NCBI GenBank assembly: GCA_038087875.1
Contig: CM075993.1
Location: forward strand, 5,086,001-5,146,000
DNA length: 60,000 bases
Source of the DNA: Malacoraja senta
Taxonomy: Eukaryota
Direction: 5' to 3'
Shown here: positions 11,983-12,719 of the stretch, in pieces
Layout of the letters: each line of letters begins with the position of its first letter
Numbering within the stretch: position 1 is the stretch's first letter
Translations under genes and position numbers: made by a program
Notes under the pieces: generated by a model
The model's database searches: none
What the model saw: only the letters and a program-made list of their open reading frames with translations
What the model was told of the DNA's origin: nothing

Positions 11983-12057
11983 CTGTGGCTCGCAGCCGAG
12001 GTGTTGTTCCGTACATCTCTGAGCCTCCGTCCACAGACCGCCAGCTCTGGCGTTTTG
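11983..12057 (-). CDS. PEAK1: Candidate 75-nt symmetric (phase 1/1) cassette exon of PEAK1: AKRQSWRSVDGGSEMYGTTPRLRAT
   Basis: Branch-point-like CACTAAC near 12135-12140, a polypyrimidine tract of about 40 nt, cAG| acceptor and CAG|GTGAG donor. Length is divisible by 3, there is no stop in the PEAK1 frame, and it is CpG-rich relative to its flanks. Confidence 0.72.
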
Positions 12058-12719
12058 CTGGAGCGATTACATACAAATAGAAAGAGAGAAAAATAGGAGA
12101 GAGAAAGAGAAGAAAGGTTGGGACTGCCAGAAAGTTAGTGACTCAAATTAACAAATCAGTGCATTCAGATTTTACCACTCATGACTATTTGTTTTCTGCA
12201 CCAGCGTATGGCAAGAAATTACTTTATTTTAAAATTATGATCTGACCAATAACAATAAAAATGAATATTCATCATACAACAGATTGATTTAACAAACAAT
12301 TAAGAAAGCATACCTGGTCAAGATTTTTTAATTAAAGTGAGGTTATGTTGAACCTCTACAAATTCACGGTTTATTTGCAAGAAGAGTTTTGCATCTAATT
12401 ATGGTCACTATACTATATGTGATGCAGAAAAGATTTAGTGGAGAGGCCCAGAGTTCAAGGATTTTAGTAACACATAATTCTTCAGCAAAGAGCAGAGAAG
12501 ATTAAACAGAAGATTGTTAGAAGTATTCAAAATGTACGGAGAATTGGATACAAGAATTTTGAGACAAGGACGGCAAAAATAAAATAGGGACAAAAATGAG
12601 AGTGAAAAAAAATGTTTTCACACAGCCAAGAAAAACACAAAGTGCAGGAGTAATTCAGTGGATCAGATTGCTAGTCGTCATGATCTGGAAATCACTACAT
12701 GAAATGGTAGTATAGTCAT

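What the first reader, a model, noticed from the sequence alone, without database searches (positions are those of the whole stretch)
11983..12140. Unannotated-looking 75-nt in-frame cassette exon immediately after the pYSN Grb2-type site
Seen: a CACTAAC branch point, a long pyrimidine tract, cAG|CAAAACG...GCCACAG|GTGAG, 75 nt, phase 1/1 and stop-free. It inserts AKRQSWRSVDGGSEMYGTTPRLRAT directly after SATYSNI. In canonical human PEAK1, as I recall it, SATYSNL runs straight into GQSRAAMIPPK with no such insert. The peptide adds a basophilic kinase site (KRQS), a further RS, a Tyr and a TP site between the YSN SH2 motif and the downstream Crk/14-3-3 motifs. Inference: splicing could retune adaptor recruitment.
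Basis: partly seen in the sequence, partly recalled or inferred. Interest (0 to 1): 0.7.

Follow-up and report, generated by a model that had tools for sequence, protein, structure and literature searches.

The report
Shark-and-ray optional exon in PEAK1
A short optional exon in the cell-migration scaffold gene PEAK1 is real, is both used and skipped across sharks, rays and skates, is already in public gene models, and probably acts as a spacer that pulls an adaptor-binding site away from its helper segment rather than adding new binding sites.

Summary
The 75-nt exon (12057-11983, minus strand) is real: splice signals, phase and peptide are as described. The window is skate PEAK1. It is not unannotated: named gene models carry the 25-residue insert in 20 of 22 elasmobranch species seen, the skipped form in 13, both in 11. 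Two unnamed skate contigs short enough to be spliced mRNA encode one form each, and a relative's contigs break at both splice sites. No insert was seen at this junction in bony vertebrates or lamprey. Length is fixed, but substitutions are chemically as random as neutral ones and evenly spread, while the next 15 residues never change. Best reading (0.5): a spacer that separates pY-SNL from the adjacent segment that, in human PEAK1, raises CrkII binding but not Grb2 binding (PMC10279719). Tissue pattern, dN/dS and binding are untested. Not found in print or in earlier scan notes. Ordinary kind, testable hook.

The parts
27052..30257 (-). Large coding exon of PEAK1 (from the ATG; its 5' splice boundary was not determined), N-terminal disordered region, donor in phase 2
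   Evidence: ORF of 1070 aa; 96-97% identical to skate PEAK1 proteins; donor GTAAGT
15701..15894 (-). Constitutive 194-nt exon ending in the YSN SH2-binding motif (here YSNI), donor in phase 1
   Evidence: spliced contigs of three runs lie on exactly this stretch (records 8, 24, 32)
12134..12140 (-). Consensus branch-point heptamer CACTAAC, 78 nt upstream of the acceptor (also a QKI-type ACUAAC element, motif recalled)
   Evidence: use as branch point is inferred
12060..12123 (-). AG-free polypyrimidine tract, 64 nt, 84% pyrimidine, CU-rich (PTB-type, motif recalled)
11983..12057 (-). 75-nt frame-preserving cassette exon, phase 1/1, 25 codons; 61% G+C against 32% and 39% in the flanking 500 nt
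   Evidence: homologous insert in 20 elasmobranch species; contig break points at both ends in a relative
11977..11982 (-). 5' splice site GTGAGG
11782..11878 (-). Three GCATG (one TGCATG) 105-200 nt downstream of the exon: candidate RBFOX elements (motif recalled; weak, see report)

Best explanation
It is an elasmobranch-wide, frame-preserving cassette exon of PEAK1 (shown, about 0.97). When included it puts 25 disordered residues between the Src-phosphorylated YSNL motif and the invariant GQSRANMIPLKQP segment, and lengthens the distance from that tyrosine to the PPPLPKK CrkII-SH3/14-3-3 tandem site from 45 to 70 residues (shown). The Grb2 consensus pYxN and pY+3 stay intact, but the C-terminal extension that raises CrkII binding in human PEAK1 is moved away. 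The most likely effect is therefore weaker CrkII capture at this tyrosine with Grb2 binding little changed (inferred). Selection appears to act on splicing, frame and length, not on residue chemistry (inferred from protein-level patterns; dN/dS not measured). A long CU-rich tract with a distant branch point and downstream GCATG elements suggest tissue-regulated inclusion (inferred, weak).
For: Inclusion in 20 of 22 species, skipping in 13, both in 11. Unnamed skate proteins P0127 (1783 aa, 5701-nt contig) and P0129 (1758 aa, 5446-nt contig) encode inclusion and skipping. In run X4 an intron contig stops at 12030, exactly where a graph of 31-letter words must stop if the acceptor at 12057 is used; a contig over the exon ends 34 letters from 12015, i.e. 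at the donor; the spliced 3746-nt contig ends at 15701. Over 19 species: 30 changes in 25 sites (1.2 per site), against 0.80 for residues 1-1359, 2.82 for the fastest 50 residues, 0.33 for the 18 residues before and 0 for the 15 after. Mean BLOSUM62 of the changes is -0.88, matching neutral point mutation of these codons (-0.69 to -0.84), whereas the rest of the region (-0.08) is far above its neutral value (-0.39 to -0.41; 0 of 5000 draws); lowest value among 21 windows of like rate. Seven invariant sites against 7.5 expected from an even rate. No indel in 19 species, while 10 of 23 fast windows have one. Human peptide 1106-1121 binds CrkII more tightly than the 7-mer and Grb2 about the same (PMC10279719, section 8). 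Tissue-switched exons are frame-preserving with reduced synonymous rates (PMC1201369, passages).
Against: No binding data for any elasmobranch peptide; the size of the CrkII gain (Fig. 2e and Supplementary Data 1 of PMC10279719) was not seen and may be small. The insert's own first residues might substitute for the lost extension. K2, S5, V9, D10, G11, L22, A24 are invariant, so a motif is not excluded; 25 sites give little power. No nucleotide sequences of distant species, so RNA-level constraint is not measured. The joint 15701-12057 itself was not among the 15 joints shown (660 more were cut from the table). No tissue labels. GCATG triplets of like density occur twice more on the minus strand (35245-35366, 43456-43579). 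A fixed length without indels is expected in about half of comparable windows anyway.
Confidence: 0.5

Rival explanations
1. Tolerated passenger: an exon that arose in an early elasmobranch inside a disordered linker, is spliced in part of the transcripts and persists because it is in frame and harmless; sharks and rays evolve slowly, so similarity is retained without a function.
For: Substitutions are chemically neutral-like and evenly spread; intron and exon differ equally little between close skates (13 of 560 against 1 of 75 letters in X4), so close relatives show no special constraint; absent from all bony-vertebrate and lamprey models seen.
Against: Rate is under half that of the fastest stretch of the same protein (1.2 against 2.82 per site; skate-shark identity 68-76% against 35-50%); both splice sites, length and frame are kept in 20 species; chance of no stop among 30 neutral events is about 0.07; six CpG persist in 75 nt; exons that are always minor are rarely conserved (10% human-mouse, PMC1201369).
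Confidence: 0.25
2. Motif carrier: the insert brings a basophilic phosphorylation site K-x-x-S-x-R two to seven residues after YSNL, whose phosphorylation tunes SH2 binding or Src access at the tyrosine.
For: K2 and S5 are invariant (20 of 20) and R7 is changed in one species only; PEAK proteins are regulated by basophilic kinases at the nearby tandem site (PMC13089168, passages).
Confidence: 0.2
3. Pseudo-exon or annotation artefact; or a conserved RNA element mistaken for an exon.
For: The named models are automatic predictions; no raw junction reads were seen.
Against: Independent annotations of 20 species agree on both boundaries; a 1783-aa frame on a 5.7-kb contig must be spliced RNA; contig ends fall on both splice sites; no Rfam family near its threshold; folding is weaker than shuffles (z +1.5); single-copy depth in DNA at 12015 (22.8), so not a young repeat.
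Confidence: 0.02

Closest known systems
PEAK1 (SgK269) isoform pairs in NCBI models of sharks and rays, e.g. XP_072138894.1 / XP_072138899.1 (Mobula birostris), XP_067829611.1 / XP_067829613.1 (Heptranchias perlo), XP_055518527.1 (Leucoraja erinacea)
   Same: Same 25-residue insert at the same junction, 16-24 of 25 residues identical to the window's; with and without forms.
   Different: The window alone has Met at insert position 15 (Thr or Ile elsewhere) and YSNI instead of YSNL.
Human PEAK1 Y1107 / PEAK3 Y24 pY-SH2 site and tandem CrkII/14-3-3 site (PMC10279719)
   Same: Same motif order: YSN(L), conserved extension, PPPLPKK and R-A-N-T; 45 residues from Tyr to PPPLPKK in the skipped skate form and in a primate protein.
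   Different: No insert in the human peptide or in any tetrapod model seen; the paper's main text never mentions splicing or exons (0 occurrences).
Conserved frame-preserving, tissue-switched cassette exons (PMC1201369); exons with distant branch points and AG exclusion zones (PMC1431707)
   Same: Multiple of three, alternatively used in many species, nucleotide-like constraint, consensus branch point beyond the usual 40 nt with an AG within 12-15 nt of it that can be bypassed.
   Different: Tissue switching and low dS are untested here; the AG-free zone is about 66 nt, below the 100-nt class analysed in that paper.
Callorhinchus milii PEAK1 isoform X1 (XP_007906504.2), 11-residue insert at the same junction
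   Same: Same position, in-frame, with a skipped isoform X2; shares the tripeptide SWR.
   Different: Different length and sequence; a codon-compatibility test gave no sign of homology (118 of 200 shuffles scored as well; weak test).

Membership tests
PEAK1 orthologue | Top sequence matches named PEAK1 over the N-terminal region | tested here: met
   96% to Leucoraja PEAK1 in the searched region; 96-97% over the big exon to three skates
PEAK1 orthologue | C-terminal SHED + pseudokinase domain | not testable with these tools
   Those exons lie outside the window and no genome is held; present in the 97%-identical P0127 (Pfam kinase)
PEAK1 orthologue | YSNL pY-SH2 motif | tested here: inconclusive
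   YSN kept; +3 is Ile in the window, Leu in every other protein with the motif
Cassette exon (exon skipping) | Canonical acceptor, tract, branch point and donor | tested here: met
Cassette exon (exon skipping) | Both included and skipped in transcripts | tested here: met
   In relatives: 11 of 22 species with both models; P0127 and P0129; contig geometry in X4 and X6. Not shown in the window's own species
Conserved tissue-switched modular exon | Length a multiple of three and conserved between species | tested here: met
   75 nt; 25 residues in 19 species without indel; one further species has the same 25 residues plus a 19-residue extension
Conserved tissue-switched modular exon | Inclusion differs strongly between tissues | not testable with these tools
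   Runs are coded, carry no tissue label and are contigs
Conserved tissue-switched modular exon | Reduced synonymous substitution rate | not testable with these tools
   No nucleotide sequence of sharks or rays; only an indirect protein-level pattern
Distant-branch-point exon | Branch point more than 40 nt upstream, at the 5' end of an AG-free zone | tested here: inconclusive
   Sequence fits (78 nt; one AG 10 nt after the branch A) but branch use is not mapped
Motif-bearing insert (kinase or SH2 site) | Motif residues conserved above the local background | tested here: not met
   KRQS 3/20, RS 3/20, Tyr 10/20, TP 11/20; invariant sites 7 against 7.5 expected; K-x-x-S alone is 20/20
Neural microexon (3-27 nt) | Length of at most 27 nt | tested here: not met
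   75 nt; definition from abstracts listed
Vertebrate-wide PEAK1 exon | Present in bony vertebrates | tested here: not met
   0 of 68 informative proteins among 106 non-chondrichthyan hits and 0 of 46 informative among 52 further proteins including lamprey, lungfish and two ray-finned fish; gene models only, not genomes

The most novel reading that the evidence does not exclude
Cartilaginous fishes use a splicing switch at the YSNL junction to set whether phosphorylated PEAK1 prefers CrkII or Grb2: elasmobranchs with a 75-nt exon whose residues are irrelevant, the chimaera with an independent 33-nt insert at the same junction, regulated by RBFOX/PTB/QKI-type elements in a tissue such as brain or muscle. 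It would be the first splice-level control of a PEAK scaffold and a natural test of whether the pY site and the tandem site act together at a fixed distance.
Probability: 0.2. Interest if true: 0.55.

Novelty: new member of a known kind. Interest (0 to 1): 0.3.

Why it matters
The exon falls exactly between a solved Grb2-binding phosphopeptide and the adjacent segment shown to strengthen CrkII binding, a segment that never changes across 19 elasmobranchs and is recognisable in lamprey. It therefore gives a natural spacing mutant for a scaffold studied in cancer, testable with two synthetic peptides. As a phenomenon it is ordinary: conserved in-frame cassette exons in disordered regions are common, this one is already in automatic gene models, and it was not seen in humans or model species.

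Tried and rejected
Whole-genome access: none held. A 40-codon query of the exon with in-frame intron flanks found nothing, a false negative, since P0001 carries 23 of the 25 residues; blanks from that tool are weak. Region search with the insert and flanks found 9 proteins among 12 candidates, all elasmobranch. HMMER over 50% representatives gave 9 hits, none matching the insert part. No RNA holder on record was listed for the window: no evidence either way on expression in its own species. In one search repeats at 12600-13800 crowded the joint and loose-end tables, so the joint 15701-12057 was not displayed; X6 and X16 show no cover at 12002-12152, which alone proves nothing (X16 may be too diverged). 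The depth ratio in X4 (55.7 over the exon, 119.9 over the YSN exon, 8-15 in introns) is not a valid inclusion level. Rfam: one chance-level match, E 0.18, far below its threshold and on the other strand. RNA structure: none above shuffles. Pfam: none for the insert. Homology to the chimaera insert: not supported. No structure or complex was predicted: the region is disordered and phosphotyrosine cannot be modelled here. Print searches: PEAK1 + alternative splicing + exon + pseudokinase (6 papers); PEAK1 + splice variant + isoform (24, 21 listed); PEAK1 / cassette exon / exon skipping / microexon (1,242, 25 listed, none of the listed with PEAK1); chondrichthyan splicing terms (28, 15 listed); PEAK1 + shark (4): none on this exon by title and abstract start. 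The library lacks most subscription papers, and bioRxiv supplements are closed.

Full report
Observation. The upstream 194-nt exon (15894-15701) ends in SATYSNI plus one base, so the exon is entered and left in phase 1 and adds 25 residues without a stop. Of 299 stop-free in-frame candidates between 15700 and the window's start it ranks first on a crude score and is one of 2 that pass a strict filter (my own weights, donor matrix recalled). The exon is 61% G+C with six CpG, in introns of 32-39%. The following exon is outside the window. No genome is held.

Identity. The 1070-aa frame at 30260-27048 is PEAK1 of a skate: 96-97% identical to Leucoraja, Amblyraja and Rhinoraja proteins, 79-86% to rays and sharks, 75% to Callorhinchus. 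It is identical to none of them.

It is annotated and alternatively used. Among proteins fetched elasmobranch species have a named model covering the junction: 20 show the insert, 13 the skipped form, 11 both. Cluster listings do not hold every isoform, so these are lower bounds. One species (Pristiophorus) has the 25 residues plus a 19-residue extension. The models are automatic, but two unnamed proteins from assemblies of sequencing runs, 97% identical to the window, give full-length frames on 5701- and 5446-nt contigs, one with and one without the insert (P0127, P0129); a gene spread over more than 18 kb can give such contigs only as spliced RNA (inference).

Runs. No run on record as RNA holds the window. 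Four of 24 listed runs were laid on 11700-16200. In X4 (a relative) a 3746-nt contig lies only on 15701-15894 and ends at 15701; an intron contig runs 12590-12030. The upstream exon and the acceptor share their last two letters, so with 31-letter words a spliced and an unspliced path merge at 12059 and the intron contig must end at 12030, which it does (word length taken from the tool text). A separate contig covers 12015 with its end 34 letters away, at the donor. In X6 a 5324-nt contig lies on the YSN exon and runs on for about 2050 letters that are not in the stretch, as a skipped transcript would. The joint itself was not among the 15 shown of 675, because repeats filled the table. X19 matches the window without a difference at both exons and may be its source.

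Distribution. No insert at this junction in 68 informative proteins among the 106 non-chondrichthyan hits listed (32 lack the motif, 6 lack the next exon; 120 of 459 hits were listed), nor in 46 informative among 52 further proteins, which include lamprey, lungfish, coelacanth, eel and a dragonet. A search centred on the insert returned 9 proteins, all elasmobranch. These are gene models, and ray-finned fish and amphibians are thinly sampled. Callorhinchus has its own 11-residue optional insert at the same junction; homology is not supported (118 of 200 shuffles as good). The simplest reading is a gain in the elasmobranch stem, before the shark-ray split (roughly 270-300 million years ago, recalled).

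What is selected. On a tree of 19 species (Pristiophorus and the two skip-only species left out) the insert takes 30 changes, 1.2 per site, against 0.80 for residues 1-1359, 0.42 for the rest, 0.33 for the 18 residues before and 0 for the 15 after; 21% of 25-residue windows change as much or more. The fastest 50 residues change at 2.82 per site, so the insert is held to under half of a free rate. Yet its changes are as radical as random point mutation of its codons (mean BLOSUM62 -0.88; neutral -0.69 to -0.84), unlike the rest of the region (-0.08; neutral about -0.4), and are the most radical among 21 windows of similar rate. They are spread evenly: 7 invariant sites against 7.5 expected; only 1 of those 21 windows is as even. 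Slow, even and blind to chemistry is what constraint on the RNA plus an open frame would give; tissue-switched exons show such constraint (PMC1201369, passages). Limits: 25 sites, residue pairs counted against the commonest residue rather than as tree events, assumed mutation weights, no dS.

Mechanism. In human PEAK1, Src phosphorylates Y1107 of TYSNL; the Grb2 crystal structure orders the core and not the trailing GQ; extending the peptide to residue 1121 tightens CrkII binding and leaves Grb2 about unchanged (PMC10279719: passages, section 8 and a term search of 5 supplementary files; the affinity values in Fig. 2e and Supplementary Data 1 were not seen). The exon boundary lies right after YSNL, so inclusion keeps pYxN and pY+3, replaces everything from pY+4, and moves the tandem CrkII-SH3/14-3-3 site from 45 to 70 residues away. 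I therefore infer a spacer that weakens CrkII capture at this tyrosine (0.5). Rivals: tolerated passenger (0.25), a K-x-x-S-x-R kinase site (0.2; basophilic control of the nearby site is in PMC13089168, passages), artefact (0.02). Regulation is inferred only from motifs: a branch point 78 nt upstream with a bypassable AG 10 nt after it fits the distant-branch-point layout linked to alternative, PTB-regulated exons (PMC1431707, passages), though the AG-free zone is shorter than that paper's class; three GCATG lie 105-200 nt downstream (0.45% of 200-nt windows hold three), but two other such triplets exist in the window. RBFOX, PTB and QKI motif assignments are recalled.

Novelty. The kind is well known and the exon is in public models. 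I found no paper on it (listings only) and no earlier scan note on PEAK1; one note describes a parallel case in a ray EVL gene, not checked here. Verdict: real, conserved in elasmobranchs, new member of a known kind, interest 0.3.

Noticed in passing
window 15702-15704, minus strand: The motif reads YSNI (codon ATA) where every other PEAK1 seen, lamprey to human, has YSNL. Run X19 confirms the letter. It departs from the CrkII SH2 consensus pYxx(P/L) quoted in PMC10279719.
   Followed up: partly
proteins P0041, P0058, P0061, P0064, P0066, P0118, P0191-P0194, P0204, near residue 1057: A second optional PEAK1 insert of 39 residues, between the big exon and the YSN exon, is strongly conserved among turtles, lizards, snakes and platypus (11 proteins), with skipped forms in turtles. 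It looks far more sequence-constrained than the skate exon and was not found in the window (tblastn). Its status in placental mammals and birds was not examined.
   Followed up: partly
P0014, P0165 (Callorhinchus milii), YSNL junction: An 11-residue optional insert at the same junction as the elasmobranch exon, different in sequence; possible independent gain.
   Followed up: partly
junction of window exons 27052 and 15894; shark proteins P0006, P0007, P0144, P0141, P0010/P0150, P0157/P0012: Shark models vary at this junction too: a one-residue difference (tandem acceptor-like), a 16-residue extension in three species and a 30-residue insert in one. In the window a stop follows the big exon's donor at once, so read-through is not possible there.
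   Followed up: no
window 5169-5896: A 34-nt tandem repeat, 21 copies, giving long repetitive open frames.
   Followed up: no
window 22962-24848 minus strand; 7778-7977: Broken LINE-type reverse-transcriptase frames inside the intron between the big exon and the YSN exon (family by recall), and a 200-base run of N within a GA-rich repeat.
   Followed up: no
window 35245-35366 and 43456-43579, minus strand: Two further clusters of three GCATG upstream of the coding exon; no strong donor within 250 nt upstream of either.
   Followed up: partly
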